From NCBI GenBank assembly GCA_005888635.1, contig VBAW01000016.1, positions 133,859 to 197,858 on the forward strand: a stretch of 64,000 nt of DNA. The letters run 5' to 3'. This stretch comes from Candidatus Bathyarchaeota archaeon (GTDB lineage: Archaea > Thermoproteota > Bathyarchaeia > 40CM-2-53-6). The notes beneath the pieces are model-generated. The model was not told the DNA's origin. It searched no databases and saw only the letters and a program-made list of their open reading frames with translations. Shown here in pieces: positions 7,671-53,675 of the stretch. The position numbers were made by a program, and so were the translations under genes. Numbering within the stretch: position 1 is the stretch's first letter; each line of letters begins with the position of its first letter.

Positions 7671-8612
7671 GTGTTTCGCGCGATCACTTGTCTAGCCGGC
7701 GGCGTGGGGGCCGCTCGCTTCTTAGATGGTCTCGCAAGAGTATTTCCTCCTGAAAAGATAACCGTTATCGTCAACACCGGAGATGATCTCCAATACCTAG
7801 GATGTCACGTCAGCCCCGACCTCGACATCGTGACCTACACTCTCGCGGGAGTCGTGGACAAAGCAAAGGGCTGGGGCATCGAAGGAGACACGTTCGGCTG
7901 TATGGTCCAACTAGGAAAGTACTCTGCTGAGACCTGGTTCAGGATTGGAGACCGAGACTTTGCAACACACCTTCTACGCACAGCATATCTCCAGCAAGGC
8001 TTCAACCTATCCGAGGTTACCGAGAAGATCAGAAACTCTCTCGGAGTCAAAGTGCGAATCCTGCCTATGACGGACCATATGGTAGCGACGAAAATCAAGA
8101 CCCCAAAGGGCATACTCGAGTTCCAGGAATATTTCGTTAAGAGAAAGTTCCAAGACAAGGTGGAGGATGTTACATACGAGGGAGCAGCGCATGCCACGCC
8201 CGCCCCTGGTGTGATCCCCGCGATAGAGAAGACAGATCTTATCATCCTATGCCCGAGCAATCCGATCTTGAGCATAGGGCCGATTCTGGCGATCCCCGAC
8301 ATTCGCAACAGCATCGCGAAAACACATGCGAAGATTGTGGGAATCAGCCCCATCGTGGGCGGAAAAGCAATCAAAGGGCCTCTAGACCAAATGATGGAGA
8401 GCCTCGGTCTGGAGGTCTCCCCCTTTGGGGTCGCGCAGCTCTACAAGGGCTTGATAAGAGGATATGTTATTGACGAAGTGGACCGAACCATTAGCCCCAA
8501 GATCACGAGCCTCGGTATGAGAGTGATCGCGACAAAGACAGTAATGGATTCTGACGAAGCTAGGGCTAAGCTAGCGGAAAACACGTTGAAGTTTGCCGAG
8601 ACGATCTCATGA
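7671..8612 (+). CDS. cofD: 2-phospho-L-lactate transferase (F420 biosynthesis)
   Basis: 313 aa. N-terminal ITCLAGGVGAARFLDGL matches the CofD/YvcK-family glycine-rich motif. LILCPSNPILSIGPIL motif present. Confidence 0.85.
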   Translation: MFRAITCLAGGVGAARFLDGLARVFPPEKITVIVNTGDDLQYLGCHVSPDLDIVTYTLAGVVDKAKGWGIEGDTFGCMVQLGKYSAETWFRIGDRDFATHLLRTAYLQQGFNLSEVTEKIRNSLGVKVRILPMTDHMVATKIKTPKGILEFQEYFVKRKFQDKVEDVTYEGAAHATPAPGVIPAIEKTDLIILCPSNPILSIGPILAIPDIRNSIAKTHAKIVGISPIVGGKAIKGPLDQMMESLGLEVSPFGVAQLYKGLIRGYVIDEVDRTISPKITSLGMRVIATKTVMDSDEARAKLAENTLKFAETIS

Positions 8613-9274
8613 CCGAGAATTGGGCTGTAATCCCGGTAAAGGGCCTCACAGAAAGCAAAACAAGACTTTCAACATCCCTTCAAGTGGATAAGAGGAGGAT
8701 TCTTGTTGAGGCTTTATTGGAGGATGTTCTTTCATCCATAGTTCGATCAAGAGTTTACGGAATTGTCTTGGTGATTTCTCCGGACGAAAACGTTCGAAGT
8801 CGAATTTTGCCTCAAGAGGTCTCTTTTCTCAAGCAAACAGGCGTAGGTCTGAATCGGGCAATAGAACAGGCGAATAGACTGGCGACGCAAAAACATGCGC
8901 GCTCGCTTACGACGGTTCTCGCTGACATCCCATTAGTTGAGCCTGGAGATTTCAAGGAACTACTGAGTGTTGGCACTGCCGTTCCAAGGGTCGTAATGGC
9001 CCCATCGTTGAAAGGGGGTACGAATGTGATGCTGACCTCTCCTCCCGGCACGATTTCCCCTAGTTATGGAAGATGGAGCTACTCCAAACATCTCCGTCTA
9101 GCACAGATGAAGGGGGTCGATGCCTATTCGATATCCAATTGTCGAGTTTCCTTTGACATTGATACAATGTCCGATTTGATGGAACTTAGGCGACTCGATC
9201 CCGAAAGCAAGACGGCGTCCGCAAGAGCCACGAGTATGATGAAAGTGGTTGTGAGCCCGGCAAGAGTTCGCTAG
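8609..9274 (+). CDS. cofC: 2-phospho-L-lactate guanylyltransferase (F420 biosynthesis)
   Basis: 221 aa. AVIPVKGLTESKTRL N-terminus is typical of CofC/MobA-like NTP transferases. ATGA overlap with cofD. Confidence 0.8.
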   Translation: MTENWAVIPVKGLTESKTRLSTSLQVDKRRILVEALLEDVLSSIVRSRVYGIVLVISPDENVRSRILPQEVSFLKQTGVGLNRAIEQANRLATQKHARSLTTVLADIPLVEPGDFKELLSVGTAVPRVVMAPSLKGGTNVMLTSPPGTISPSYGRWSYSKHLRLAQMKGVDAYSISNCRVSFDIDTMSDLMELRRLDPESKTASARATSMMKVVVSPARVR

Positions 9275-9300: not shown

Positions 9301-10035
9301 TTGAGTAGTAACGCTTTTATGAGTACGTTCTTTTCCGCTCTCGCCATGGCTTTCTCGCGGACTTCCCTGAGGCCTACCGCCGTCCTAGCCGGTAGTGCGA
9401 CTTTCGGGGCTCTGGCTTCACTCATAACGCTAGCCGCTCCACCAGCATTGCAGCCTCCGTTTCCGATTCTGTTTTACTTGAAGTTCGACGTGGCGGAGGT
9501 CGTTGACCTAAGTTCGTTCATGATTTTTGGTCCTACTGCTGGTTTGCTGACGGCGTTGATTCACGCCACGATACTTGGAACGGTTGCAGGAGGTGCGGGC
9601 AGTGGCCCATTCTTTGGTCCTAGCTTGAAGTTTCTTGGAGTTCTCTCAACTTACATTGGGCTTTTTCTGGCGTCGAGATTTGGAAGACAGAGTCTGGTGA
9701 GAGCTAGTCTTACGATGACAAGCTTAGCCCTCATTACTCGGGTAACACTCATGACCGCAGCGAACTATTTTTACATCGTATTTCTTGCGCAGACGGTCTT
9801 CGGCGTGGACTACACTGGCTTCGCTCAATTTGTGCTGAGCCAATCAGGCATCAACCTCACAGGCTCCGGACTGATTCTCTACATTCTAGGACTGACCGCG
9901 ATATACAACGCCGTTCACGTAGTCTTCTCCGTGGTTGTATCGCTGCTTCTCGTGAACGCCTTGATGAAAAGAGCACCGAACTTGCTTCAATCGAGAGCTT
10001 GGATAACAAGAGTCCTAAATTCGGCATCGGGGTAG
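9301..10035 (+). CDS. hypothetical polytopic membrane protein (possible transporter S-component-like)
   Basis: 244 aa with 6-7 TM helices. Its 3' end overlaps the decayed purA 3' region on the opposite strand. Confidence 0.55.
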   Translation: MSSNAFMSTFFSALAMAFSRTSLRPTAVLAGSATFGALASLITLAAPPALQPPFPILFYLKFDVAEVVDLSSFMIFGPTAGLLTALIHATILGTVAGGAGSGPFFGPSLKFLGVLSTYIGLFLASRFGRQSLVRASLTMTSLALITRVTLMTAANYFYIVFLAQTVFGVDYTGFAQFVLSQSGINLTGSGLILYILGLTAIYNAVHVVFSVVVSLLLVNALMKRAPNLLQSRAWITRVLNSASG

Positions 10036-10161
10036 GCTATCTTATCTTCGCAACCAGAGCGGGCTTCGTCTTCGTGCTCTTCGAGATGGATCTCCGGTCT
10101 ATGAGGTCTGCTTCCCAAGCTCCTGTTCCTATCAAGCTGACTGGAACGCCGGTGTCTTTTT

Positions 10162-10994
10162 CTATCTTCGATACAAAGTCCCGTCCTTCTTTTGGCAGAT
10201 TTGAGTACGTTCACGTCCAGTAACCGTGCCGTGTTCCATCCAGCCCCGTCTAAGAACTTCTTCCCTGTCCAGTTGTCCTTCGAGAGGTCCCTCTCCTACT
10301 CGAGTAACGTAGGCTTTGAAAATAATCATCACATCATCGACATCTGTTGGGCCGATTCCAACATCCGCACATGCTTGAGATGCAGTGACGTCCTTTGACG
10401 TAACATACGGATACGTTCCATGGTACAGACTCAAGAATGTTCCTTGAGTCCCTTCAACCATCACATTCCGACCTTTCGATAGTGCTTGGTGAATCTCAGC
10501 AACTGTATCAGTGACATAGGGTCTCAAACTGGTTTCTTGTCTGGCCAATTTCACCATACGGAGCGCTCTTTCTGCATTGCACGCCCCTACTCCGCTCTTG
10601 GTTGAGCCGATCTTGTTCGAGAGATGTTCAGATTCGCACTCCTGAGTCTTATGCCGCTCTTCCAGCATTGCGCATTGATAGTCGACGCTGATTCTATTCT
10701 CAGAGTCAGTTTCCTTGATCTCATTTAGGAGAATCGCGGTTTCTACCGGCACTCCCGCGCCTATCATCAGACGCGTAGAACGACTTACGAACCCGCTAGG
10801 CATGAGTCTAAGATGATACTCTTTCCCATCGTGAAAGACGGTGTGACCTGCGTTCGGTCCGTTTCCTCCTCTAACGCATATGTCGGGTTTGTCCTTTAGG
10901 GCCAGGTAGGCAGCTATCTTGCCTCTAGGGGACGATTTGCATCGTCTTTCCCTTCGTCCCCAAAGAAACCCCCGACGATTACGGTACAGGGCAA
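10162..10994 (-). pseudogene. purA: adenylosuccinate synthetase remnant (disrupted)
   Basis: Minus-strand translation starts MPCTVIVGGFFGDEGK at TTG 10994 and then loses frame. After a 23-nt insertion (plus 10924-10946, containing the GACGATttgcATCGTC hairpin and a TAG) it resumes GKIAAYLALKDKPDICVRGGNGPNAGHTV...EGTQGTFLSLYHGTYPYVTSKD...TGRER. This is collinear with archaeal PurA, but the motif after TGRER is out of frame and the last roughly 100 aa are not recoverable in any frame. Confidence 0.6.
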
Positions 10995-11133: not shown

Positions 11134-12570
11134 TTATGGATCGTGGGAGTGTTCGTAGCCTGGGACTGGATGCGGCAGGTACGGGAAGACGGTCAGGAAG
11201 GGACTTGTGTTGGGCGGTTGTATCGGGCTTGAGTCTACCCCGTCTCCTACGAGAGCTGCTGCTCCATCGGGAGTGAAGCTTGGGTCTACTAGTGGTAGGG
11301 TTACTCCTGCGATTGCCCGAATTTCGATATCGATCACGTCGTCTCCTACTCGTCGTCCGTTGGGGAATCCTGCGGCGTCTCCCGCTATGAGGCCAAGACG
11401 ATTCGGGCTGGTCGTGTTGGGTTGTATTGCCATGTTGAGCCGCAGATAATCTGCTTGGACACTTCCTGTGAAGTTTTGGAAGCCGGGCACAATTCCCGAA
11501 GGTATGCCTGTCAACAGGATAGCAACGAGGTCCGCTCTGGGTTTGCTGTATCCTGCTAAGTTGGGGAAGATCCCAGGGTAAAGGATCGGTAAAAGCTTCT
11601 GGAGTTCTGGAGTCTGGTAGTATTGCAGGAATTGAGAGTCAAACCGTGGGTTCACTGTGTTCCACACGTCCTTCTTCCCAAGTGGAATTATCACTTCGTT
11701 GATGAGTGGCATTCCGAGCCGAGACACCTGTGTGAATGGTCCTGTTTGGATGCCGGGAGATGTGTCCTCGTCAAACTGGCCGTTGTCATCGTCGTCTCCG
11801 TCGCCGGGTAGGATTGTGGCTTTCCTTCGGCTCGCGGAGGCCCATATTCCCACCACTGAATTCTTGTTCAACGGATCTGTTGAATTGGAACCGTCACTTG
11901 TCAACTGTTTCTTCGAGACTTGAAGTGCGATTGTGTGAACGCTGAACCCTTTGGTTGTGTCCACTCCTGGAGCTGCTGGCGTAGGGATGAGGTGTAGGTT
12001 CTGAAAGGGTCTGAGTGTCGCCAGGTCAAAAATGGACCCTAGGTCAACGTAGAATGCTTCGTCTCGTTGTCCAGCGAAGACCGTCGAGTTGTCATTGAGA
12101 ATGTTAACGGCCGCATTTGCTAGGTCGGTATAGTTGGGGGTGGATCTCGGGCCAATGTTTACGGGAGGTGTCGAAAGTTTCGTGCCCAACACAGTTGGAG
12201 TTCCGCTTCGTCTTGGTCCCAAGACCTTCGTAACGGAATAGAACTGCTTGACGTTCCATGAGGAGTCTGTTAGGGAACTGATCGGTCCTGTGTTGTACAG
12301 GAAGGTATCAGGGTTCCCGATCTTCGTTTTGAACTTAAACTGATACGTGACATCTTCGATTCCGTCCCCATCGTTGTCAACCATTATTTCGTACAGTACG
12401 TCGTCTCCAAAGGTGTTGAAGTTGGGTCCGCCTGCTGGCTCTTCCAGTGGAATGTAGTTGGCGAGGATTGTGACCGTGTCAGGTTTGTCTGGGCTGACGA
12501 ATGCGTACAGATCCGTATTGTCAGCAACTGGATCTTTGGAGATCTTAGGAGCTTCTCGATGAGATGTCAC
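11134..12570 (-). CDS. DUF4331 family protein, no signal peptide of its own
   Basis: 478 aa beginning MTSHREAPKISKDPVADNTDLYAF. This is the hallmark SHREAP...DP..DxTDLYAF N-terminal motif of DUF4331, which in bacterial homologues follows a signal peptide. GTG start 4 nt after the upstream gene's stop, with a GGAG 8 nt upstream. Confidence 0.8.
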   Translation of the reverse strand: MTSHREAPKISKDPVADNTDLYAFVSPDKPDTVTILANYIPLEEPAGGPNFNTFGDDVLYEIMVDNDGDGIEDVTYQFKFKTKIGNPDTFLYNTGPISSLTDSSWNVKQFYSVTKVLGPRRSGTPTVLGTKLSTPPVNIGPRSTPNYTDLANAAVNILNDNSTVFAGQRDEAFYVDLGSIFDLATLRPFQNLHLIPTPAAPGVDTTKGFSVHTIALQVSKKQLTSDGSNSTDPLNKNSVVGIWASASRRKATILPGDGDDDDNGQFDEDTSPGIQTGPFTQVSRLGMPLINEVIIPLGKKDVWNTVNPRFDSQFLQYYQTPELQKLLPILYPGIFPNLAGYSKPRADLVAILLTGIPSGIVPGFQNFTGSVQADYLRLNMAIQPNTTSPNRLGLIAGDAAGFPNGRRVGDDVIDIEIRAIAGVTLPLVDPSFTPDGAAALVGDGVDSSPIQPPNTSPFLTVFPYLPHPVPGYEHSHDP

Positions 12571-15492: not shown

Positions 15493-16260
15493 TTGGAAGG
15501 TCGTCGATCGCTGAAAATTGTCGTCTGTGTGCGTCGTGTCCCGGACACGGCAGCCCGTATCAGAATAGCTTCTGATGGAAAGTCGATTGATACTTCGGAT
15601 GCTGAATTCGTAATAAACCCTTACGAAGAATATGCTCTCGAGCAGGCCGTGCAGCTCAAGGAGAAGCATGGGGGTGAGGTCACAGTCGTTACGTTGGGTC
15701 CAGAGAAGACGACCCAGGTCATCATGAAGGCACTTGCCCTCGGGGCTGATAAGGCGGTTCATCTCAAGGTGGACAAGATCCCTGAAGACCCTGGCTCAAT
15801 TGCAAGAGCGATCGCTAACGAGTTGAAGGGGTCGGAATTCGATGTCCTTCTTTTCGGAAAGAAAGGCGTCGACGATGACAACCAACAGGTCGGCCCCATG
15901 GTCGCAGAATTGTTGGGGATTCCCTGCATAACCCAAATCGTCAAGCTAGATGTATCCGACGGAAGAGGGGTTGCGCACAGAGAAGTAGAAGGAGGATCAA
16001 TAACGGTGGAAACGACCCTTCCCGCAGCGTTTACCGCAGAAAAGGATCTGACTGTTCCTCGCTACGCCTCTCTCAGGGAGCTTGTAGCCGCAAGAAAAAA
16101 GCCGATTATCGTAAAGGACGTCCAACTACGGGCACTCTCTCTCGAGATCATTTCCGTCCAAAATCCTCCCCCCCGCCCTCCGGGAAAGATAGTTGGAAAA
16201 GGGGTTGATGCAGTCCCCACACTAGTGAAGCTCTTGCATGAAGAGGCCAAAGTGATCTAG
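15493..16260 (+). CDS. etfB: electron transfer flavoprotein beta subunit
   Basis: 255 aa with LKIVVCVRRVPDTAARIRI and VINPYEEYALEQAV motifs typical of EtfB/FixA. TTG start. Confidence 0.85.
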   Translation: MEGRRSLKIVVCVRRVPDTAARIRIASDGKSIDTSDAEFVINPYEEYALEQAVQLKEKHGGEVTVVTLGPEKTTQVIMKALALGADKAVHLKVDKIPEDPGSIARAIANELKGSEFDVLLFGKKGVDDDNQQVGPMVAELLGIPCITQIVKLDVSDGRGVAHREVEGGSITVETTLPAAFTAEKDLTVPRYASLRELVAARKKPIIVKDVQLRALSLEIISVQNPPPRPPGKIVGKGVDAVPTLVKLLHEEAKVI

Positions 16261-16263
16261 GCA

Positions 16264-17247
16264 GTGACAGGAGAAGTTCTAGTTCTTGCAGAGTCATCAG
16301 GACCTGCCTTCCGCAAAGCTGCCCTGGAAGCGGTCACCGAAGGAAGAAGACTTGCGGATCTTCTCAGGGTGAGTGAGATTGTTCTAGCAATTGGAAACGG
16401 CTTGAAGGATCCCGCGAGTGAGCTCGGAAAGTATGGAGCCGACAAAGTGATTTTGGCAGATGACCCTTTATTGGCAATCTTCCACCCCGATTATTATCGA
16501 CAGATAGCGCTAGAGGCAATCAAGCGAGTTAACCCAAGCATTATTCTCGCTGCGGCAACTTCTACGGGAAAAGACTTGGCGCCACGATTGGCGATTCACC
16601 TAGATACAGCTGTTGCGAGTGAGTGCACTCATTTGGAGATGGAGAACGGGAAGCTCATAGCGACCCGGCCTGCTTATGCTGGCAAGGTCTTGCTCAGAGT
16701 CAAAGTCAACAGCTCGCCCAGCATCGCAACTCTCCGACCAAATGTCTTTACCGCAAGAGAAGCCGTACCTGGAAAGAAACCGACAGTCGAGCAAATCGCG
16801 TTCAATCGACCGGATTCACGGATGATTGTGAAGGAATTCGTTACTCAAGGGGCGAAGAAACTAGATCTCACAGAGGCCAGCGTTATAGTTTCGGGCGGCC
16901 GGGGAATGGGTGGACCCCAGAATTACAAGATTCTTGAGGAATTGGCTGAGGTCATGGGCGGAGTTGTCGGAGCATCAAGAGCCTCTGTGGATGCCGGTTG
17001 GAGGCCTCACTCAGACCAAGTTGGCCAGACAGGGCGTACTGTTTCTCCGATGCTGTACATTGCCGCGGGCATTTCAGGCGCGATTCAACACCGCGTAGGA
17101 ATGATCAACTCTAAGGTTATCGTCGCGATCAATAAGGATCCGGAAGCTCTCATCTTCGGATTCGCGGACTACGGCATTGTCGGAGATGTTTTCGAAGTGG
17201 TCCCAGCGCTTACGCGCGAAATGAAAGCGTTCTACGGAAAAACGTGA
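16264..17247 (+). CDS. etfA: electron transfer flavoprotein alpha subunit
   Basis: 327 aa with FAD-binding C-terminal domain motifs VSGGRGMGGPQNY...YIAAGISGAIQHRVGM typical of EtfA/FixB. GTG start. Confidence 0.85.
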   Translation: MTGEVLVLAESSGPAFRKAALEAVTEGRRLADLLRVSEIVLAIGNGLKDPASELGKYGADKVILADDPLLAIFHPDYYRQIALEAIKRVNPSIILAAATSTGKDLAPRLAIHLDTAVASECTHLEMENGKLIATRPAYAGKVLLRVKVNSSPSIATLRPNVFTAREAVPGKKPTVEQIAFNRPDSRMIVKEFVTQGAKKLDLTEASVIVSGGRGMGGPQNYKILEELAEVMGGVVGASRASVDAGWRPHSDQVGQTGRTVSPMLYIAAGISGAIQHRVGMINSKVIVAINKDPEALIFGFADYGIVGDVFEVVPALTREMKAFYGKT

Positions 17248-17260
17248 AGACTACGGGTTC

Positions 17261-17611
17261 TCATTCCATATGGGATTTGAGAAACCGCCCGATTTCCTGA
17301 CTCAAGGGGCTTCTCGAGACGTCAATGACGGGCATCTCCATGTTACCAGCCTTCACGTTGTGGCTGAAATCAGACATGGGAGCGAAGCTGATCGAGGCAA
17401 TGTAGAGTTCACCTTTCGCGTACTCTTCAGGCATCTCAGGAGGCGGAATCGGCTGAGAGACGAAGACGACTCCCTCACACCAATTTAGAAGAATGGGTTG
17501 CCCCATTTTCATGATGATGGCAAGAGAGTTCACTAGCTGCTGAGGGTTGTCGTATTTGACGAGTTCGCGGACAACAACCCGCTTCAGTGGTTCATGGGCT
17601 ATTTCGACCAT
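17261..17611 (-). CDS. hypothetical protein
   Basis: About 117 aa, counted from the internal Met (MVEIAHEPLK...). The longer 205-aa ORF upstream would overlap fixX in another frame. Confidence 0.35.
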   Translation of the reverse strand: MVEIAHEPLKRVVVRELVKYDNPQQLVNSLAIIMKMGQPILLNWCEGVVFVSQPIPPPEMPEEYAKGELYIASISFAPMSDFSHNVKAGNMEMPVIDVSRSPLSQEIGRFLKSHME

Positions 17612-17679
17612 TGACGATTCAACTTCACGCTCGGAGGTCTGCGAGTGGCCTATTTGTTGGTTAAGAGGATTTGGGATAC

Positions 17680-17973
17680 TTATCCGAGCTTGAAAGCGAC
17701 TCCTTTTCCGCCTGAGGGATATTTCCAGCTGATCGCGCCAGCGCCGATCTTGTGACACACAATCAAGCAAGCCCCTGTCTCCATGCATCCCTCGGTGTTG
17801 TAGTTCAGCTTCTCCTTCCAGGCGTAGACTTCGGCTGGGCATATGTAGAGACATGGTTTTGATTCGCAGTGATTGCATTTGTCGGTATCGACTACGATGA
17901 ATGGTTCTGCGTCCTTCGCAAAACTTACGAGCGCCAGCCTCTTGTCAAGCGTTAGGGATTCTTCAGTGGGCAT
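17680..17973 (-). CDS. fixX: ferredoxin-like protein FixX
   Basis: About 97 aa from MPTEESLTLDKRLALVSF. CNHCESKPCLYICPAEVY and EGCMETGACLIVC cysteine clusters, plus the C-terminal WKYPSGGKGVAFKLG that is typical of FixX. Confidence 0.75.
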   Translation of the reverse strand: MPTEESLTLDKRLALVSFAKDAEPFIVVDTDKCNHCESKPCLYICPAEVYAWKEKLNYNTEGCMETGACLIVCHKIGAGAISWKYPSGGKGVAFKLG

Positions 17974-17975
17974 CG

Positions 17976-19256
17976 TTAGAACGTCCTTGCTCCTCTGATC
18001 AAGTCGCGTATTAGAGTGAATATTGAGACTCGGCCTTTCGCCTGCAATCTCACTTCCCTGGAGATCTTTCTCTTTCCCGTTCCATCCACCCGGTAGACTG
18101 CCTCGGCGGCTGAGCACACGAGTTCTGGATAGACCGTGTATAATCGCCTGTTCCTTAGATACGCCGGGACACGGTGGAAAGTGTACATGTCTTTGAGAGC
18201 TGGGTCTTCATGCAATTTTCTTTCGAACACCTTCAGGGAGTTCGCTGAATAGTCTTTCTTCTTTCGAGCTTCCAAAACAGTTTGAGCCGCGGCGACCCCG
18301 GCTTGAATAGCCATGTCGACTCCTCGGAACGTGTAACCGTTGTTCAGGAGATGGCCCGCCGCATCTCCCGCAACAACCATCCCATCGGTATATGGACGGC
18401 TGAGCATTTTTGGGCCGGCTTCAGGGATCATATGCGCATCGTATTCGACAGTCTTTCCTCCTTTGATGAAGCGCTGCACCTTTGGGTGTTCTCGGAGTTT
18501 CTCCATGAAGCTGTAGGATTGAGTCTTCTGTGAGGAAACATCGTCTCCCCCAACAACCATGCCGAGCGCTAAGCTGTCTTGGTTTGTGTAGAGGAACCCT
18601 CCGCCTCGGAGTCCTCCCGAGCACGCTCCGATAAAGACATGGGCCGCTCCCTGGCCTGGTTCGAGACCGAGACGTTCCTCTATCTTCTCGCTCGGCAGCT
18701 CTATAACGTCCTTTACTCCCATGGAGATTTGGCTCGGTTCAAGCATCGATGCGAGACCCGCTCTCCGTGCTAGCCCAGTCGTCGTCCCGTCGCAGGCGAT
18801 GACCACATCTGTTGGGATCTTGTCTTGGCCAGCAACGATTCCTCTTACACGACTGCCGTCCATGATCAGGTCGTCGACTCTGCTTTCGGTAATGAGGGAC
18901 GCTCCCGCCTTTTCCGCCTCCTCAGCTAGCCATTTGTCGAACTTCGCTCGCTTCGCTGTAAAACTGCCTTCTGCATCCTTAGACTCGAATTCGAAGGAGA
19001 ACGCATTGTCTGAAGTCATAAATGTGATACCCTCCTTTCGCACAAAGCGTTCGACAGGGGCATCCTTCCATGAGTCCCCAAGAAGTTTCTTGAGGGCATA
19101 CGAGTATATTCTTCCTCCAAACACGTTCTTTGATCCTGGAAAAGTTCCCCGCTCCACGAGCAAAACCTGAACTCCCTCTCTCGCAAGTGTAATTGCTGCT
19201 GCGCTTCCAGCCGGACCTGCGCCGACTACGGCGACTTCGAAGCCTTCAAGTGACAT
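17976..19256 (-). CDS. fixC: FAD-dependent ETF:quinone-type oxidoreductase FixC
   Basis: 426 aa with a GAGPAGSAAA dinucleotide-binding motif and FixC/ETF-QO-like body. Immediately upstream of fixX. Confidence 0.85.
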   Translation of the reverse strand: MSLEGFEVAVVGAGPAGSAAAITLAREGVQVLLVERGTFPGSKNVFGGRIYSYALKKLLGDSWKDAPVERFVRKEGITFMTSDNAFSFEFESKDAEGSFTAKRAKFDKWLAEEAEKAGASLITESRVDDLIMDGSRVRGIVAGQDKIPTDVVIACDGTTTGLARRAGLASMLEPSQISMGVKDVIELPSEKIEERLGLEPGQGAAHVFIGACSGGLRGGGFLYTNQDSLALGMVVGGDDVSSQKTQSYSFMEKLREHPKVQRFIKGGKTVEYDAHMIPEAGPKMLSRPYTDGMVVAGDAAGHLLNNGYTFRGVDMAIQAGVAAAQTVLEARKKKDYSANSLKVFERKLHEDPALKDMYTFHRVPAYLRNRRLYTVYPELVCSAAEAVYRVDGTGKRKISREVRLQAKGRVSIFTLIRDLIRGARTF

Positions 19257-19384: not shown

Positions 19385-19882
19385 CTAATGGTCCGCTTCT
19401 TTCTCATATCTCTGCCGTAGAATCTCTTGGATCAACTCCACAGCACGCTTGATCTGCCTTTGCATTGCCATCGGATCGTATCCCACCGGAGGCTTCGTAT
19501 CGAGATATCGTCGATACATGTCAAAATCAAGGAACTTTTTGCTCGTCTCGAAGATGTTCATCAGAGCTGCGCTATCCATATTCTCCAAGTCTGAACGGCG
19601 GCAGTGGTAGAATCCATTCTCTCGGGCGAACGTAATCTTTTCATTTCCGAAAGAATCGTTGTACACATCTTCCCACAGGTTCCGATCCACCTCACTTTCC
19701 TCAACAAGACCTTTCGAGATCTTTGACTGGTACACCTCGAATAGGTGGCTCGCCTGAGGCTCGGGAATCTCAAGCGCCTTGGAGACTTCCTGAAATGACA
19801 ATCCTTTCTTTCTTAGGTAATAGCAGGCCTCTTCGAGATACGGCAATGCATCCGTATCCACCTCAGTCACTCCTACCATTCC
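19385..19882 (-). CDS. hypothetical protein with HTH-like segment
   Basis: About 165 aa from MVGVTEVD. Contains GLSFQEVSKALEIPEPQASHLF, which looks like an HTH. Confidence 0.4.
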   Translation of the reverse strand, partial: GMVGVTEVDTDALPYLEEACYYLRKKGLSFQEVSKALEIPEPQASHLFEVYQSKISKGLVEESEVDRNLWEDVYNDSFGNEKITFARENGFYHCRRSDLENMDSAALMNIFETSKKFLDFDMYRRYLDTKPPVGYDPMAMQRQIKRAVELIQEILRQRYEKEADH

Positions 19883-19973
19883 TCGAATATGGGCGAGAAG
19901 ATTCAGATGAATAATAAGTTGAAGTCGTCCACACTCAGATTGGTTAGAAGGACGGGTTCTAACGGTCGGAGGG

Positions 19974-20396
19974 CTAATAAGCCATTTTCGGAAGACTGCT
20001 CTTGAAGTATCGCCTGCATTTCCTGCACTGTAGTCTGCCTTCCGAGATTGGTCGGAGTGGTGTCTCACAGAAAGGGCACATGTCGAGTCTAGCCAAATTG
20101 CTAGGTTCTTCGAGGTCTTCCAATTTAGATTTTGAACCGAGCCGAGCCGGTAAAGATTGAGAGTGCCTTCTGCCGTAAAAAGCCAAGATAACAGCTGCGA
20201 CGATCACCGCAGATATGCCGATTGTTATCTCCGGCCAAACGCTTGCCCATGCGTTTGACACGTACGCTTGCATGAAGGGATTGTGAGTGTATTCAAGATA
20301 CAACCAAACAGCAAGCAGTAGATTGGCGGCTGATTGTATCACCAACAGAGGACCGTACCTTGAGCTGAGTAGTGAAGGTAGTCTTGTTGTTCTCAT
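19974..20396 (-). CDS. membrane protein with C-terminal zinc ribbon
   Basis: 140 aa with two TM helices and CPFCETPL...CRKCRRYF. Confidence 0.45.
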   Translation of the reverse strand: MRTTRLPSLLSSRYGPLLVIQSAANLLLAVWLYLEYTHNPFMQAYVSNAWASVWPEITIGISAVIVAAVILAFYGRRHSQSLPARLGSKSKLEDLEEPSNLARLDMCPFCETPLRPISEGRLQCRKCRRYFKSSLPKMAY

Positions 20397-20558: not shown

Positions 20559-21785
20559 CTACCGGTAAGCCTCGTATTCGGTGCCCAGGAGACTCACGGC
20601 TATCTTCTGGACCATTATTTCATCAGTGCCTTCATAAATCCTGCAGACCCGAGTATCGACCAAGTGCCTTGGAGCTCTAGTCTCGAAGCTGTAGCCGCTT
20701 GAGCCAAGAATCTGAACTGTTCTGTCTGCAGCATCGAATGAAGCGTTTGATGCGAAGTACTTTGCCTTGGCAATCATCACGTCTGCGTAGTCTCGCAAGT
20801 CTTTGTCTTCTGGATCCGAGTCGCTTTTCTGTTTCAGAAGCGCCGCCTTGTACACCACGTTCTTCGCTGCTTCAAGATTGGTTGACATTTCCCCAATATG
20901 CCGCTGGACGAGTTGGTGTTTTGCTATCGGTTTTCCATGCTGGATTCTCTGCTTGGAAAATGCAACTGCCTCGTTGATGCAGTCCTCGATAACTCCTAAG
21001 CACCCGGCGGCAACGCTAAGTCGGCCGCTCATCAACCCCGAATAGGCTATGCTCAGCCCTTTGCCCGCGGGTCCCATTAGGTTCTCTCTTGGGACCTTGC
21101 AATTGTCTAGGAAGATTGAGCCAGTGTCTGACGTCGGCATTCCGAGTTTGTGTTTCTGTTGCTGACTCGAATATCCTTCGAAATTCTTCTCAACAATGAA
21201 CGCGCACATCCCTTCTCGCTTACCCTTCGGGTACGCAAAAATGACGGCGACATCTGCTATGCTGCCGTTTGAAATCCAGGCCTTACTGCCATTCAGTACG
21301 AAGTTGCTCCCCTTCTCCTCAAATGTTGTGCGAAGAGATGCGGGATCGCTTCCCGCGGTTGGTTCGGTCAGTCCAAAACACATGACCTTCTCTCCTCGCG
21401 TGGCTGGAGGAAGGTAGCGCTGCTTCTGCTCCTCGCTCGCCCATTTCTGAACGGTTACTTGTCCCAGAGAGATATGACCGGAGAGGAACGTTCGGACCCC
21501 AGTTCCTTCTTGGCCAATCCTTTCTAGGGCTAGGGCATAAGTCAGTACGTCTGCTCCTTGGCCTTCGCCGTATCGCCTTGAGATTGGTAATCCTAGAAGT
21601 TGCGCTTTTCTGAAAATTGGTGCAAGGCGATCATTGAACTTTCCGGCTAGGTATGCTTCGTCCTCCAACGGACGAAGTTCTCTACATGCCCTATCAACCT
21701 CATCCAGTACGAACCTTTGCTCATCGGACACGTCAAAATTCATGTGCGATAGATCTGCAAATCCAGAGTCAACAACAGTCTTCAT
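20559..21785 (-). CDS. acyl-CoA dehydrogenase
   Basis: 408 aa with the ACAD N, middle and C domains (CFGLTEPTAGSD, YEGTDEIMVQKIA). Confidence 0.9.
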   Translation of the reverse strand: MKTVVDSGFADLSHMNFDVSDEQRFVLDEVDRACRELRPLEDEAYLAGKFNDRLAPIFRKAQLLGLPISRRYGEGQGADVLTYALALERIGQEGTGVRTFLSGHISLGQVTVQKWASEEQKQRYLPPATRGEKVMCFGLTEPTAGSDPASLRTTFEEKGSNFVLNGSKAWISNGSIADVAVIFAYPKGKREGMCAFIVEKNFEGYSSQQQKHKLGMPTSDTGSIFLDNCKVPRENLMGPAGKGLSIAYSGLMSGRLSVAAGCLGVIEDCINEAVAFSKQRIQHGKPIAKHQLVQRHIGEMSTNLEAAKNVVYKAALLKQKSDSDPEDKDLRDYADVMIAKAKYFASNASFDAADRTVQILGSSGYSFETRAPRHLVDTRVCRIYEGTDEIMVQKIAVSLLGTEYEAYR

Positions 21786-35048: not shown

Positions 35049-35636
35049 TTGTCGGTGCACGAGACCGAGCCTGAATCCGTTCTCGTACGAGATATCATGT
35101 CAAGGCCTGTTATCACCGCGAAAGAGTCTGACACTGCAGCTGATGTCGCGAAGCTAATGGCCAAGCATAACATCGGATGCGTGCTCGTCTCGGGCAAGAA
35201 AGGAGAAACGGTCGGGATAATTACTGAGCGAGATATCGTTCAGAGAATCGCGGCCAAGAATCTCATCCCGTCGAAAGTGACCGTGGGCGAGGCCATGACC
35301 AAGCCCGTCGTCACAATAAAATCGGGAGCTAATGTCACGGACGCTGCGAAGCTGATGAACCAGCGAAAGATCAGAAGACTCGCTGTAATGGAGAATGGAA
35401 AACTTATGGGAATTTTGACGATGAAAGACATTCTAGAAATTACTCCTGCAATAATCGATCTTGCCTCTGAGAAGAGTAAAGCTGGACTGGGACGGACCCC
35501 CAGGACGAGTACCTCTCGTCTGTCCGGTTATTGTGACGAGTGTGAAACTTGGTCGGAAGCGTTGGTGCAGAAGGATGGAGTCTTCCTCTGTCAGGACTGC
35601 GCAAAGGAACTTGGCCCGGTCGAAGAAGACAACTGA
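35049..35636 (+). CDS. CBS-pair protein with C-terminal zinc ribbon
   Basis: Two CBS motifs (VRDIMSRPVITAK..., AVMENGKLMGILTMKDIL) followed by CDECETW...CQDCAKE. Confidence 0.75.
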   Translation: MSVHETEPESVLVRDIMSRPVITAKESDTAADVAKLMAKHNIGCVLVSGKKGETVGIITERDIVQRIAAKNLIPSKVTVGEAMTKPVVTIKSGANVTDAAKLMNQRKIRRLAVMENGKLMGILTMKDILEITPAIIDLASEKSKAGLGRTPRTSTSRLSGYCDECETWSEALVQKDGVFLCQDCAKELGPVEEDN

Positions 35637-36963
35637 GACCGCAGTAGATCTGGAAGACCGGAATATTCTGGTCAAAGATGCTGACATCTGGAATGGAAAG
35701 GGCTTCACTAGGGGCTGCATTCTGATCCTAGAAGGCCGGATCAAACGAATAGCTCGCAGCATAACGGACAGTGGAGTAGAGACGATTGATGCTCTGGGAC
35801 TCAAGGCTCTACCTGGACTCATAGACGTTCATGTCCATCTCAGGGACATTGGACTCGCCTACAAGGAGGATTTTGCTACTGGAACAGCTGCAGCCGCAGC
35901 AGGAGGATTCACGACGGTGCTTGACATGCCGAACACGGTCCCTCCAACCGATTCCGCTAGCCGCTTGATTGAAAAGCGGAGAGTAGCAGCCCAGAAGACC
36001 TACGTCAATGTAGGTTTTCACGCGGCCGCAGTATCTGATTCTCACGACATAGAATCCTTAGCCGATGCAGGAGCATTCTCGCTCAAACTCTACATGCCGA
36101 AACCTATCGCGCCCTTCGATGTCGAGAATGACCAGGCAATAGAGAAAATGATGCGAACCGCAGGGCGCGTTGGGACGCCGGTAACCGTTCATGCAGAAGA
36201 TCTTGTCACTGGGGAAAATACGAGCAAGACAGATAGCTTCGAGGCGGCCGCAGAGGCTCGGCCTCCAATCTTCGAAACTCGCGCTGTCGATAGACTATTG
36301 AGAATTCAGAAGAAGGCTCGTTGCCACGTCCACTACTGCCACCTAACTCTCCGCTCCAGCCTCACGAAGATCACTGGTTCGACAAGATCCACTAGCGAGG
36401 TCACGCCTCATCATCTCCTCCTCTCCAAGAAGATCTTGTCCAGTCTCAGGTGGAGAGCCTGGATGGTTCCCCCATTAAGATCTGAAGAGACGAGGTGGAG
36501 CTTGCTCAAATCCACACTTACTGGTCTCTGCAGCGTTATCGCCAGTGATCATGCCCCTCACGCCGTCATCGAGAAGGATCAATCCGTCAGCAAGAGTCCG
36601 CCGGGTATCCCAGGATTGGAAACGACACTGCCATTAATGTTGACACTGGTCAACAGACAACAGATGAGTCTCTCGCTCTTAGTGAAACTTCTGTGCGATA
36701 ATCCTGCAAGGATTTTCGGTCTCAAGTCCAAGGCCAAGCTTCGGAGGGGAGCGGATGGCGATGTTGTCTTGGTTGATCTGAAGAAGAAATCTATGATAGA
36801 TTCAAGTAAGTTCTTTTCGAAGGCGAAGTATTCGCCTTTTGATGGGTTCAGGACTCAGGGCGCGGTTCATTCTACCATTGTTGGCGGAGGGGTCGTCTAC
36901 AGGGAGGGAGAGATCGTCGCCGGAGAAGGCTCTGGCTCCGTGTTGCGAAGTGGTTCATGTTGA
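35611..36963 (+). CDS. pyrC: dihydroorotase-family cyclic amidohydrolase (start uncertain)
   Basis: LPGLIDVHVHLRD and VIASDHAPH metal-binding motifs. The nearest in-frame canonical start after the CBS gene stop is absent; TTG 35611 or ATG 35575 would overlap the upstream gene. Confidence 0.75.
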   Translation: MARSKKTTETAVDLEDRNILVKDADIWNGKGFTRGCILILEGRIKRIARSITDSGVETIDALGLKALPGLIDVHVHLRDIGLAYKEDFATGTAAAAAGGFTTVLDMPNTVPPTDSASRLIEKRRVAAQKTYVNVGFHAAAVSDSHDIESLADAGAFSLKLYMPKPIAPFDVENDQAIEKMMRTAGRVGTPVTVHAEDLVTGENTSKTDSFEAAAEARPPIFETRAVDRLLRIQKKARCHVHYCHLTLRSSLTKITGSTRSTSEVTPHHLLLSKKILSSLRWRAWMVPPLRSEETRWSLLKSTLTGLCSVIASDHAPHAVIEKDQSVSKSPPGIPGLETTLPLMLTLVNRQQMSLSLLVKLLCDNPARIFGLKSKAKLRRGADGDVVLVDLKKKSMIDSSKFFSKAKYSPFDGFRTQGAVHSTIVGGGVVYREGEIVAGEGSGSVLRSGSC

Positions 36964-37460
36964 GGTTTGTAGTTGACGGAATGCTCGGAGCCCTATCGCG
37001 CTGGCTGAGAATGCTGGGATACGTGACAGAATATGATTCGAAAGCTGACGACAACATTCTCTTACGAAACTCCCAGACGCTGGACACTGTCCTCTTGACG
37101 CGTGATGAAGAGCTCTACAATAGAGCTCTCGCAAAGAATATTCGTTCAGTGCTGGTTCTCGGCGATACTGAGGAAGCCCGACTGGGACAGTTAGCGAGAA
37201 CTCTCGGAATGTCCCTCGATATCGACATGGCCTCTACTAGATGCCCTGAATGCGGCGGCGAGCTTCACGAGATTTCTAAGCAAGAGGCCTCAGGCGTCGT
37301 CCCGGCCAAAAGCCTCGAACTCTACGATCGATTCTGGAGGTGTAGCAACACCAGGTGTGGGAAGACGTATTGGGTGGGAAGCCACTGGAAACAGATACGT
37401 CACACGCTCGAAGAGGCCCGAACGATAGCGACACAAGAAGAGAAGAACACGGCATGCTAA
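36957..37460 (+). CDS. Mut7-C (PIN-like RNase plus zinc ribbon) domain protein
   Basis: 167 aa. FVVDGMLGALSRWLRMLGY is the Mut7-C/DUF82 signature. C-terminal CPECGG...CSNTRCGK ribbon. Confidence 0.7.
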   Translation: MLRFVVDGMLGALSRWLRMLGYVTEYDSKADDNILLRNSQTLDTVLLTRDEELYNRALAKNIRSVLVLGDTEEARLGQLARTLGMSLDIDMASTRCPECGGELHEISKQEASGVVPAKSLELYDRFWRCSNTRCGKTYWVGSHWKQIRHTLEEARTIATQEEKNTAC

Positions 37461-53548: not shown

Positions 53549-53675
53549 ACAGAGAGCGCTTGAGGATACTTCTCGTCGTGAGCGTGGGCTTAGCGGAATA
53601 TAAAAGAACAACCCACACCCCTATATTGCATTAATTGGATGAGCAATGGACTTTCGCCTTCCGCCCCACTTCTAG

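What the first reader, a model, noticed from the sequence alone, without database searches (positions are those of the whole stretch)
10162..10994. purA disrupted by a 23-nt palindromic insertion inside the P-loop and with a decayed 3' end
The adenylosuccinate synthetase reading frame is collinear with archaeal PurA but broken in two places. The first break is between GDEGK and GKI of the P-loop, by a 23-nt insert (plus 10924-10946). That insert carries the perfect hairpin GACGAT-ttgc-ATCGTC and an in-frame TAG. The second is after TGRER, where the conserved RRxGW/YxD block and the last roughly 100 aa cannot be recovered in any frame. That region instead overlaps a well-formed membrane-protein gene on the other strand. 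PurA is normally indispensable for de novo AMP synthesis, so either a second copy exists, the organism salvages adenine, or the lineage is genome-reduced. The small palindromic insert itself could be a footprint of a mobile element or a recombination event.
Basis: seen in the sequence. Interest (0 to 1): 0.55.

Follow-up and report, generated by a model that had tools for sequence, protein, structure and literature searches.

The report
Conserved splicing-type intron inside archaeal purA
The 23-base "insertion" in the purA gene is most likely a small intron of the kind archaea cut from tRNAs, conserved in soil Bathyarchaeia and only the second such intron proposed inside an archaeal coding sequence; this copy also has a private 118-base deletion that probably disables it.

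Summary
Both frame breaks are real, but they are different things.

**Break 1 (P-loop, 23 nt).** This is not damage.
- Exactly 23 nt sit at the same site in 89 of 110 purA sequences (the window plus 109 loci from soil Bathyarchaeia).
- These genes are under strong purifying selection (dN/dS 0.06-0.11, synonymous sites saturated).
- Cutting between the 2nd and 3rd bulge nucleotides, the rule reported for cbf5 introns, removes 23 nt (window 10947-10925, minus strand).
- That restores GDEGKGK and gives a full-length ORF in 86 of 87 loci.
- The best reading is a splicing-endonuclease intron in a pre-mRNA. Only cbf5 (coding) and Haloferax HVO_1309 (5'UTR) were reported in the literature searched.
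- Splicing itself is not shown; no transcript evidence was found.

**Break 2 (after TGRER).** This is a clean 118-nt deletion at 10208|10207.
- It is unique to this window (1 of 91 loci).
- It removes 39 codons, including RRAAPFD and TKLD, and shifts the frame.
- The last 56 codons are intact in the third frame.
- It is either a recent inactivating deletion or an assembly artefact.

The parts
10948..10994 (-). purA exon 1. It runs from the TTG start through the first two bases of Lys16 and encodes (M)PCTVIVGGFFGDEG + AA.
   Evidence: Translation. In alignment A3, 9 of the 13 variable exon-1 columns are third codon positions of this frame, so the stretch is translated in this frame. In one search, 82 of 88 intron-bearing genes start with TTG and 6 with ATG.
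10925..10947 (-). Predicted BHB intron, 23 nt: A-GACGAUGCAAAUCGUC-CCCU-AG. The cuts fall between the 2nd and 3rd nucleotide of each bulge (10948|10947 and 10925|10924).
Evidence: Exactly 23 nt at this site in 89 of 110 sequences. Removal gives GGG AAA GGC AAG (GKGK) and full-length ORFs in 86 of 87 loci. The cut rule is quoted from PMC2738675.
10950..10953 (-). Central 4-bp helix H, 5' strand (AGGG, in exon 1). It pairs with CCCU at 10927-10930.
   Evidence: All four pairs are invariant in 60 distinct sequences. Pair probability in the window is 0.86-0.94. The codons GAA GGG AAA are fixed in every intron-bearing gene but vary in intron-less relatives.
10927..10930 (-). Central helix H, 3' strand (CCCU, the 3' end of the intron).
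   Evidence: Invariant in 89 loci.
10947..10949 (-). Bulge 1 (AAA), carrying the predicted 5' splice site AA|A.
   Evidence: A 3-nt bulge in the single-sequence MFE fold and in the RNAalifold consensus. Invariant.
10924..10926 (-). Bulge 2 (AGA; AUA in L010), carrying the predicted 3' splice site AG|A.
   Evidence: Only the middle, intronic base varies. The third base must be a purine to keep the Lys codon, and it is A in every sequence.
10931..10946 (-). Intron-side helix h' (GACGA(U)/(A)UCGUC, 5-6 bp) with a variable 4-6 nt loop (10937-10940 in the window).
   Evidence: The five core pairs stay paired in 299 of 300 cells. Nearly all changes are G-U compatible (GAUGA, GACGG, AUUGUC). The sixth pair occurs as U-A, G-C, C-G, U-G or a mismatch. 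The loop varies freely.
10908..10924 (-). Exon-2 hairpin directly after bulge 2: (A)GGC...GCC(U), A3 columns 68-71 with 81-84. It may close the bulge in place of the canonical exon-side helix h.
   Evidence: Found by RNAalifold. Pair probability 0.94-0.995. The pairs are invariant, so there is no covariation support. The GGC and GCC codons are fixed in intron-bearing genes but vary in intron-less relatives. Its functional role is inferred.
10958..10967 (-). 5' strand of a long-range exon1-exon2 helix (UUCUUYGGGG). It pairs with 10892-10901 (CCCUGAAGGA). A further 6 bp form between 10971-10976 and 10882-10887.
   Evidence: RNAalifold consensus; 99.8% of cells paired. Pair 30-95 occurs as U-G 27, C-G 26, U-A 7 and C-A 0. 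In the window it takes up the GGGG that would otherwise form the competing helix GGGGACGA/UCGUCCCC. Part of the complementarity is forced by the FFG and LKD codons, so support is moderate.
10892..10901 (-). 3' strand of the long-range exon1-exon2 helix (in exon 2).
10208..10924 (-). purA exon 2, the part before the deletion. It completes Lys16 and runs through GKIAAY... to ...GTVTGRE(R).
   Evidence: Pfam Adenylsucc_synt, E = 6e-65. 95% identical to L004 PurA.
10207..10208 (-). Junction of a 118-nt deletion. The missing block is AAGAGCT...CCGAGAC in L004, encoding (R)RAAPFDF...TKLD...GIRD.
   Evidence: DNA alignment with L001-L004. 90 of 91 loci have 189 nt in frame between GTVTGRER and LIGTG; the window has 71 nt with a frame shift. 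There is no microhomology at the junction, and no relocated copy in the window.
10037..10207 (-). purA 3' part, 56 codons plus the stop. It is intact but shifted out of frame by the deletion.
   Evidence: Pfam positions 381-413 of 416. 95% identity to L004 over residues 295-335.

Best explanation
**The 23-nt element is most likely an archaeal bulge-helix-bulge (BHB) intron in the purA pre-mRNA.**

Proposed mechanism:
- The transcript folds so that the last four exon-1 bases before the bulge (AGGG) pair with the intron's CCCU.
- This 4-bp helix is flanked by two 3-nt bulges, AAA and AGA, on opposite strands.
- The intron's own hairpin (GACGA/UCGUC) closes the bulge on the intron side.
- The tRNA-splicing endonuclease (EndA) would cut between the 2nd and 3rd base of each bulge.
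- An RNA ligase (RtcB) would then join the exons. This removes 23 nt and recreates GGG AAA GGC AAG, which is the GDEGKGK P-loop.
- A long-range exon1-exon2 helix and an exon-2 hairpin probably hold the exons together and present the motif as a three-way junction, instead of the canonical exon-side helix.

Shown versus inferred:
- Shown here: the conservation, the geometry, the restoration of the frame, and purifying selection on the host gene.
- Inferred: cleavage by EndA, ligation, and the roles of the outer helices.

**The second break is a separate, private event.** This window's copy has a 118-nt frameshifting deletion that removes essential motifs. So this copy is either a very recent pseudogene or carries an assembly error.
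For: 1. **Same insert everywhere.** There is an insert of exactly 23 nt at the same site in 89 of 110 purA sequences, from independent soil MAGs and metagenomes; 18 have none.
2. **The host genes are functional.** dN/dS is 0.06-0.11 with dS from 0.8 to saturation. Removing 23 nt gives complete 336-362 aa ORFs in 86 of 87 loci.
3. **Exon 1 is translated.** It varies mainly at third codon positions of its own frame (9 of 13 variable columns). It must therefore be joined to exon 2 by removing 3n+2 nt.
4. **The fold is the BHB fold.** The MFE fold and the RNAalifold consensus both give H (4 bp), a 3-nt bulge and h'. 98.5% of cells are paired. Helix changes are nearly all G-U compatible and the loop varies freely.
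5. **The cut rule fits.** The rule reported for cbf5 introns, between the 2nd and 3rd bulge residue (PMC2738675), gives exactly GKGK. Two of the four cut registers tested would give GRG instead.
6. **Exon bases in the motif are frozen.** GAA GGG AAA and GGC are invariant in intron-bearing genes but vary synonymously in intron-less relatives.
7. **It is not a dispersed repeat.** It occurs once per locus, always in purA.
8. **It appears to be the only purA.** The species-representative genome scan found a single purA in every intron-bearing genome except one bin.
9. **The tree suggests a precise loss.** An intron-less clade (200/200 bootstraps) nests inside the intron-bearing lineages. This implies one gain and one precise loss, as described for cbf5.
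10. **The deletion is private and recent.** It is unique to the window, and dN/dS between the window and relatives is 0.055-0.20.
Against: - **No transcript evidence.** The only database protein of this clade with an intact junction (P0121) is a chimera carrying the N-terminus of the intron-less clade.
- **The exon-side helix h is absent.** The canonical helix, formed directly between exon 1 and exon 2 next to bulge 2, is missing. The motif is a relaxed HBh' type at best.
- **Little true covariation.** The element is so conserved that only one pair shows a change on both sides. Structural support rests on conservation and on G-U-compatible changes.
- **The synonymous-site dip is only partly intron-specific.** Low third-position variation over codons 1-40 is also seen, more weakly, in the intron-less sister clade.
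- **A competing fold exists.** On an isolated 44-nt fragment the helix GGGGACGA/UCGUCCCC is slightly more stable (-13.7 vs -12.4 kcal/mol).
- **The enzymes were not examined.** EndA and RtcB genes of this lineage were not looked at.
Confidence: 0.75

Rival explanations
1. **Pseudogene with a foreign or recombination-derived insert.** The 23 nt would be a disruptive lesion or a mobile-element footprint, and purA would be dead because of it.
For: The insert breaks the frame inside an essential motif. The window's copy also has a true inactivating deletion. The insert is palindromic. Its 3' arm is an inverted copy of the exon sequence GGGGACGA, which is compatible with origin by a local template-switch event.
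Against: 89 independent loci carry it with invariant length and position. The host genes show dN/dS of 0.06-0.11 and are otherwise intact. No other copy exists in the window or in the flanks of the 109 loci. A neutral lesion would not keep its stem, bulges and flanking synonymous sites fixed while dS is saturated.
Confidence: 0.02
2. **Translational recoding.** A programmed -1 frameshift, or ribosomal bypassing of the 23 nt with the hairpin as stimulator, would produce PurA without any RNA splicing.
For: The downstream frame is -1 relative to exon 1 and stays open far upstream. A stable hairpin sits at the site. The 5' region shows synonymous constraint.
Against: There is no X XXY YYZ slippery heptamer in the exon-1 frame (the codons are GGG AAA GAC). 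The hairpin starts directly after the Lys codon, with no spacer. A frameshift product would carry about 8 extra residues inside the invariant GDEGKGK P-loop. Bypassing from AAA or GGG to the next matching codon would delete two P-loop residues (sequence reading). Neither route explains the invariant 4-bp helix with two 3-nt bulges.
Confidence: 0.04
3. **A real, conserved RNA element removed or handled by something other than EndA.** Examples are another endonuclease, or a regulatory hairpin with PurA made from an internal start as a protein lacking the P-loop.
For: The exon-side helix of a strict hBHBh' motif is missing. Splicing has not been observed. Gene callers do find ORFs starting downstream, such as MAAYLALK... 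and MIGPGVP....
Against: Exon 1 evolves as coding sequence in its own frame, so it is part of the protein. A PurA without GDEGKGK would lack its phosphate-binding loop (established knowledge of the family, Pfam PF00709). The motif matches BHB geometry and the cut rule exactly.
Confidence: 0.08
4. **(Second break only.) The 118-nt deletion is an assembly or consensus artefact.** The organism's purA would then be intact apart from the intron.
For: It is unique among 91 loci. Both flanks keep intact reading frames with dN/dS of 0.055-0.20 against relatives. A cluster (P0076) 99% identical to the window's protein over the aligned 73% of the query has the full C-terminus. The rest of the window has long intact ORFs.
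Against: No repeat or microhomology at the junction would promote a collapse. Short-read assemblers seldom create clean 118-nt deletions. A real strain-level deletion is equally compatible with the data.
Confidence: 0.45

Closest known systems
cbf5 pre-mRNA intron of Crenarchaeota (Desulfurococcales and Sulfolobales; Watanabe 2002, Yoshinari 2006, Yokobori 2009, PMC2738675)
   Same: It is a short intron inside an archaeal protein-coding sequence and interrupts a catalytic motif. It has a BHB-like, often relaxed, motif at the exon-intron borders. The predicted cuts fall between the 2nd and 3rd bulge residues. It is restricted to one clade, with evidence of gain and loss.
   Different: The gene is different (purA, a metabolic enzyme, versus an RNA pseudouridine synthase) and so is the lineage (mesophilic soil Bathyarchaeia). 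The sequence is unrelated. Length is invariant at 23 nt. The exon-side closure seems to come from an exon-2 hairpin in a three-way junction. Splicing has been shown experimentally for cbf5 but not here.
BHB intron in the 5'UTR of Haloferax volcanii HVO_1309 mRNA (Schwarz et al. 2020, PMC7714728)
   Same: It is an mRNA substrate of the tRNA-splicing endonuclease outside tRNA and rRNA.
   Different: That intron lies in the untranslated leader, so no reading frame depends on it. The purA element is in the coding sequence, and splicing is obligatory for the protein.
Canonical hBHBh' introns of archaeal pre-tRNAs (and the BHB processing sites of pre-rRNA)
   Same: The geometry and strand order match: exon - H (4 bp) - 3-nt bulge - h' ... 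h' - H - 3-nt bulge - exon. The cut positions within the bulges are the same.
   Different: The host RNA is an mRNA. Helix h, formed by the two exons directly next to the bulge, is missing.
IRE1-dependent HAC1/XBP1 mRNA splicing in eukaryotes (own knowledge)
   Same: A small non-spliceosomal intron (26 nt in XBP1) whose removal by an endonuclease plus RtcB-type ligation shifts the reading frame.
   Different: The endonuclease (IRE1) and the recognition motif (two stem-loops) are unrelated. It is eukaryotic and stress-regulated. This is an analogy only.

Membership tests
Archaeal BHB intron (substrate of splicing endonuclease EndA) | Two 3-nt bulges on opposite strands, separated by a 4-bp helix (H) | tested here: met
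   AGGG/CCCU with bulges AAA and AGA. H is invariant in 60 distinct and 89 total sequences. It is predicted by the MFE fold and by RNAalifold.
Archaeal BHB intron (substrate of splicing endonuclease EndA) | Helix h' of at least 2 Watson-Crick pairs closing the bulge on the intron side | tested here: met
   GACGA/UCGUC, 5-6 bp. 299 of 300 core cells are paired and the changes are G-U compatible. Definition taken from PMC7714728.
Archaeal BHB intron (substrate of splicing endonuclease EndA) | Helix h of at least 2 Watson-Crick pairs closing the other bulge on the exon side (strict hBHBh') | tested here: not met
   Exon-1 bases ACGA, 5' of H, do not pair with GGCA, 3' of bulge 2. Instead there is an exon-2 hairpin next to the bulge, plus a distal exon1-exon2 helix. 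The motif is therefore a relaxed HBh'-type, not a strict one. Relaxed motifs are typical of cbf5 introns and are cut by (alpha-beta)2 and epsilon2 enzymes.
Archaeal BHB intron (substrate of splicing endonuclease EndA) | Cuts between the 2nd and 3rd bulge residues give a correct mature RNA | tested here: met
   This removes 23 nt and gives GGG AAA GGC AAG, restoring GDEGKGK. 86 of 87 loci then have complete ORFs.
Archaeal BHB intron (substrate of splicing endonuclease EndA) | The host encodes EndA (a type able to cut relaxed motifs) and an RtcB-type ligase | not tested
   Neither gene is in the window. Presence in archaea in general is established knowledge. The enzyme type in this lineage is unknown to me.
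Archaeal BHB intron (substrate of splicing endonuclease EndA) | Spliced RNA observed, or cleavage shown in vitro | not testable with these tools
   A protein-database search for the spliced junction found only a chimeric protein-level assembly.
Pseudogene (for the clade's interrupted purA) | Relaxed selection and sporadic, decaying lesions | tested here: not met
   dN/dS is 0.06-0.11. There are no other lesions in 86 of 87 loci, and the insert has invariant length.
Pseudogene (for this window's copy) | A lesion that removes essential residues and shifts the frame, and is absent from orthologues | tested here: met
   A 118-nt deletion unique to the window. Whether it is real or an assembly artefact is undecided.
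Programmed -1 ribosomal frameshift site | Slippery heptamer X XXY YYZ, followed after 5-9 nt by a stimulatory structure | tested here: not met
   No slippery heptamer in the exon-1 frame, and the hairpin starts with no spacer.
Adenylosuccinate synthetase (Pfam PF00709) | Full-length match that includes the P-loop and the C-terminal GTP/IMP-binding region | tested here: inconclusive
   The window's spliced product matches the profile up to position 299, and its tail matches 381-413. About 80 profile positions (39 codons in this short archaeal form) are missing. Orthologues are full length.

The most novel reading that the evidence does not exclude
Soil Bathyarchaeia splice a 23-nt BHB intron out of purA mRNA with the tRNA-splicing machinery. 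If so, this would be, in the literature searched, the first endonuclease-type intron in a metabolic gene, the first outside Crenarchaeota within a coding sequence, and the first presented by a three-way junction in which an exon-2 hairpin replaces helix h. Its nested loss in a sister clade would imply precise intron loss through a spliced RNA intermediate. More such mRNA introns may be hidden in archaeal MAGs as apparent frameshifts. Every public gene call seen for these purA genes is wrong at the N-terminus.
Probability: 0.7. Interest if true: 0.75.

Novelty: new member of a known kind. Interest (0 to 1): 0.7.

Why it matters
- **Few cases are known.** Endonuclease-dependent splicing of archaeal mRNAs rests on two reported genes: cbf5 (coding) and HVO_1309 (5'UTR). 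A 2023 review states that more likely remain to be discovered (PMC10485636).
- **This would be a well-sampled third case.** It covers 89 loci across saturated synonymous divergence, in an uncultured, abundant soil lineage and in a core metabolic gene. That extends the phenomenon beyond hyperthermophilic Crenarchaeota and beyond RNA-modification genes.
- **It offers natural data on substrate requirements.** The loci show which bases the endonuclease substrate tolerates: the loop and the middle base of bulge 2 are free, while H, h' and the bulge ends are fixed.
- **It has a practical consequence for annotation.** Gene callers mis-annotate these purA genes, truncating them or extending them out of frame, so the calls seen lack the correctly framed P-loop exon. 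Metabolic reconstructions may therefore wrongly score Bathyarchaeia as lacking AMP synthesis.
- **The 118-nt deletion is of local interest only.**

Tried and rejected
- **Exact-protein lookup** of the window's 213-aa ORF: not on record.
- **Window-wide scan for other BHB-interrupted genes** with a home-made pattern: 153 hits, non-specific. Only the purA hit is credible.
- **Overlapping same-strand ORF pairs elsewhere** (17261-19256, 19385-20396, 35049-36963, 36957-38065): the pairs with Pfam hits on both ORFs belong to different families, and 19385-20396 had no hits. No second broken gene was found. The apparently truncated gatE at 432 is continuous in frame 3.
- **tRNA introns as evidence of BHB use:** no tRNA genes in the window or in 34 loci.
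- **Rfam:** only the SRP RNA was found; nothing at purA.
- **Transcript evidence via the protein database:** the single intact-junction hit, P0121, is a chimera with the intron-less clade's N-terminus.
- **Synonymous-site constraint as proof of structure:** only partly specific, because the intron-less sister clade shows a weaker dip too.
- **Outer 5' hairpin from the single-sequence fold**: A3 column 24, one side of its second pair, varies without compensation, so it was dropped. The alternative register of the outer helix (GUCGGG/CCUGGC) was also dropped, because many sequences have a C-A mismatch there.
- **Relocated copy of the deleted 118 nt, or a second purA, in the window:** none.
- **BHB-like motif at the deletion borders** (to test for a processed-RNA origin): none seen by eye.
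Full report
**1. What is in the sequence**

purA lies on the minus strand from a TTG start at 10994 to a stop at 10039-10037. The reading frame changes twice.

The first change is between the GDEGK and GKIAAY codons. It is caused by 23 extra bases, 10924-10946, reading GACGATGCAAATCGTCCCCTAGA on the minus strand. They contain the hairpin GACGAT-GCAA-ATCGTC. The 23-mer is unique in the window, even allowing 3 mismatches.

The second change follows GTVTGRER. Pfam matches the spliced N-terminal 255 residues to Adenylsucc_synt (E = 6e-65, up to profile position 299). It matches a 56-residue peptide in the third frame to the end of the profile, positions 381-413.

- The TAG inside the insert is in frame with neither exon. 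The first exon-1-frame stop is at 10916-10914.
- The C-terminus is recoverable.
- The plus-strand ORF 9301-10035 does not overlap purA.

**2. The P-loop insert is conserved, not a lesion**

A protein search showed that the closest homologues listed (72-97% identity) lack the in-frame N-terminal P-loop exon. Many start with the same out-of-frame peptide (...GFLWGRRERRCKSSPRGKIAAY) that the window gives when read through the insert. Relatives at about 78% identity have an uninterrupted GDEGKGKIAAY.

I fetched 29 purA loci from species-representative Bathyarchaeia genomes and 80 from metagenomes.
- Of 110 sequences including the window, 89 have an insert of exactly 23 nt at this site, 18 have none, and 3 could not be parsed.
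- A relaxed pattern for the intron core matches once per intron-bearing locus, always in purA.
- Removing 23 nt gives a complete 336-362 aa ORF in 86 of 87 loci that could be scored. The exception is the window.
- Among intron-bearing genes dN/dS is 0.06-0.11, with dS from 0.8 to saturation.
- In exon 1, 9 of the 13 variable columns are third codon positions of its own frame. It is therefore translated in that frame, and 3n+2 nt must be removed to join it to exon 2.

These results rule out a pseudogene or a mobile-element footprint for the clade. They also rule out an artefact, because the contigs come from many independent assemblies.

**3. Anatomy: a bulge-helix-bulge motif**

On the RNA, the element reads 5'-...GACGA AGGG AAA GACGA(U) GCAA (A)UCGUC CCCU AGA GGCAAG...-3'.
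- AGGG (exon 1) pairs with CCCU (3' end of the insert). This is the 4-bp helix H.
- AAA and AGA are 3-nt bulges on opposite strands.
- GACGA/UCGUC is the helix closing the bulge on the intron side (h').

The single-sequence MFE fold and the RNAalifold consensus of 60 distinct sequences both return this structure.

The strand order is exon - H - bulge - h' ... h' - H - bulge - exon, as in pre-tRNA introns (own knowledge; definitions in PMC7714728).

For cbf5 introns the reported cut sites lie between the second and third residues of the bulges (PMC2738675). Applied here, the cuts are AA|A and AG|A.
- The intron becomes 10947-10925, 23 nt.
- The ligated exons read GGG AAA GGC AAG, which is GKGK.
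- Of the four cut registers I tried, two would give GRG instead.

Variation across the 89 loci fits the model.
- H, and the bulge bases that end up in the exons, never vary.
- The middle base of bulge 2, which is intronic, is G or U.
- The five core pairs of h' change only to G-U pairs (GAUGA, GACGG, AUUGUC), with one exception, L060. That sequence gains a C-G pair next to an A-G mismatch.
- The sixth pair is dispensable and occurs as U-A, G-C, C-G, U-G or a mismatch.
- The loop is free to vary.
- The exon codons GAA GGG AAA and GGC are fixed in all intron-bearing genes. Intron-less relatives use GAG, GGA, AAG and GGG at the same places.

**4. Departures from the canonical motif, and caveats**

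The strict hBHBh' motif needs a helix h formed by the two exons right next to bulge 2. That helix is absent here.

RNAalifold instead predicts two other elements.
- An invariant exon-2 hairpin starts at the last bulge base: (A)GGC...GCC(U), 10924-10908.
- A long-range exon1-exon2 helix pairs 10967-10958 with 10901-10892, with a further 6 bp outside it.

Together these give a three-way junction.

On an isolated 44-nt fragment, the competing helix GGGGACGA/UCGUCCCC is slightly more stable (-13.7 vs -12.4 kcal/mol). In the 113-nt context the GGGG is taken up by the long-range helix, and the BHB pairs have probabilities of 0.86-1.0.

These outer elements are almost invariant, so they have no covariation support. 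The only hint is pair 30-95, which occurs as U-G, C-G and U-A but never as C-A. Part of their complementarity is also forced by the FFG and LKD codons.

Third-position entropy is low over codons 1-40 (0.28-0.53 bits, against a gene mean of 1.08). The intron-less sister clade shows a milder dip (0.38-0.56 over codons 1-30, against 0.79). Only part of this constraint can therefore be credited to the intron.

The motif is best classed as a relaxed (HBh'-type) BHB. This is also how cbf5 introns are described, and such motifs are cut by (alpha-beta)2 and epsilon2 endonucleases. I could not examine the EndA of this lineage.

**5. Evolution**

A neighbour-joining tree of the spliced proteins gives the following.
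- The intron-less clade L009, L011-L017 and L029 is monophyletic in 200 of 200 bootstraps.
- That clade sits inside the intron-bearing lineages. L007, and L008 with L010, branch earlier.
- Monophyly of the intron-bearing genes is recovered in only 4 of 200 bootstraps.

More distant Bathyarchaeia lack the insert. The simplest history is one gain and one precise loss, which parallels cbf5. This rests on a single-gene NJ tree.

The 3' arm of the intron (UCGUCCCC) is an inverted copy of the exon segment GGGGACGA just upstream. Its 5' arm repeats the exon's GACGA. Origin by a local inverted duplication is an inference only.

The genome scan found one purA per intron-bearing genome, except in bin BA_23. 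That bin holds both forms, on a 3.7-kb and a 33-kb contig, and may be contaminated.

**6. Rivals for the insert**

- **Programmed -1 frameshifting.** There is no slippery heptamer and no spacer, and it would put about 8 residues into the invariant P-loop.
- **Ribosomal bypassing** to the next matching codon would delete two P-loop residues.
- **An internal start** is contradicted by the coding-type evolution of exon 1.

Direct evidence of splicing is still missing. A search with the spliced N-terminal peptide found one protein of this clade with an intact junction, P0121. Its N-terminus (MLFGYLLPC...LAMKDK) is that of the intron-less clade, so it is a chimeric protein-level assembly.

**7. The second break**

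Aligned with L001-L004, the window lacks one contiguous block of 118 nt between 10208 and 10207. In L004 this block reads AAGAGCT...CCGAGAC.
- The deletion removes 39 codons plus one base: (R)RAAPFDF...LNGATQIALTKLD...GIRD.
- 90 of 91 loci have 189 nt, in frame, between GTVTGRER and LIGTG. Only the window has 71 nt.
- There is no microhomology at the junction, no relocated copy, and no second purA in the window.
- Both flanks keep open frames. dN/dS against relatives is 0.055-0.20.

The deletion is therefore either very recent or an assembly artefact. The rest of the window has long intact housekeeping ORFs, so it is not a generally error-ridden assembly.

**8. Comparison with what is known, and novelty**

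The literature in the searchable library reports endonuclease-dependent mRNA introns only for cbf5 in Crenarchaeota and for the 5'UTR of Haloferax HVO_1309. A 2020 paper calls cbf5 the only earlier example (PMC7714728). A 2023 review says at least two genes are spliced this way and that more likely remain to be found (PMC10485636). Searches combining Bathyarchaeota, adenylosuccinate synthetase, BHB and intron found nothing on purA.

I file the element as a new member of a known kind, a BHB-type pre-mRNA intron. The strict-motif feature (helix h) is not met, and splicing is untested.

**9. Verdict**

- The interesting object is a conserved 23-nt BHB-type intron splitting the P-loop codons of purA in soil Bathyarchaeia (confidence about 0.75).
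- The window's own copy additionally carries a private 118-nt deletion of uncertain reality.
- Interest: 0.7.

Noticed in passing
P0001, P0004, P0007, P0010, P0020, P0070, P0073, P0098; L001-L008, L010, L030-L109: Public gene calls for the intron-bearing purA genes are wrong at the 5' end in every example inspected. They are either truncated (starting at MAAYLALK or MIGPGVP) or extended upstream in the wrong frame (...GRRERRxxSSPRGKIAAY). No call seen includes the correctly framed P-loop exon.
   Followed up: yes
L002 (DASPWZ010000039.1), L005 (JAJPJY010000094.1), P0007: Contigs carrying this archaeal intron-bearing purA are labelled as bacterial MAGs (Candidatus Dormiibacterota/Dormibacteraeota, 'bacterium Centralia_MAG_577'). 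They are probably mis-binned or mis-classified Bathyarchaeia contigs.
   Followed up: no
L003 and L029 (both from MAG BA_23, VBBR01): One bin holds both an intron-bearing purA (on a 3.7-kb contig) and an intron-less purA (on a 32.7-kb contig). This is either a true paralogue pair or bin contamination by a second Bathyarchaeia population.
   Followed up: partly
P0121: This protein-level assembly (source 'src') joins the N-terminus of the intron-less clade (MLFGYLLPC...LAMKDK) to the body of the intron-bearing clade. It is a chimera that mimics a spliced product.
   Followed up: yes
window 10951-10958 and 10928-10935 (minus strand): The exon-1 segment GGGGACGA is the exact inverted complement of the intron's 3' arm UCGUCCCC. 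The intron's 5' arm GACGA repeats the exon's GACGA. This gives a competing 8-bp helix and hints that the intron arose from local sequence by an inverted duplication.
   Followed up: partly
window 55453-55769 (-): Archaeal SRP RNA (Rfam RF01857, 155 bits, full length). It is the only Rfam family found in the window.
   Followed up: no
window 50147-53611 (-): A 1154-aa ORF fuses CheB methylesterase, CheR methyltransferase, PAS, HisKA and HATPase_c domains. This is an unusual all-in-one chemotaxis-modification and sensor kinase protein for an archaeon.
   Followed up: no
window 7671-9274 (+): CofD (7671-8612) and CofC (8609-9274), both coenzyme F420 biosynthesis genes, overlap by 4 nt. They lie upstream of the unannotated 244-aa membrane ORF (9301-10035) that converges on purA.
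   Followed up: no
window 11134-12570 (-): A 478-aa DUF4331 protein (Pfam E = 1e-138) lies immediately upstream of purA on the same strand. The closest relatives (L069, L077, L081 and others) align to the window at 85-95% identity from the deletion junction up through this gene.
   Followed up: no
window 15493-19256: An ETF beta/alpha pair lies on the plus strand. A FixC-like ETF-QO flavoprotein and a FixX-like ferredoxin ORF lie on the minus strand, followed by an acyl-CoA dehydrogenase at 20559-21785. Together these form an electron-transferring flavoprotein cluster.
   Followed up: no
window 59347-60402 (-): An intact 351-aa protein with AIRS and AIRS_C domains. It could be PurM (de novo purine synthesis) or a ThiL/HypE-type relative. 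If it is PurM, de novo purine synthesis is otherwise retained in this genome.
   Followed up: no
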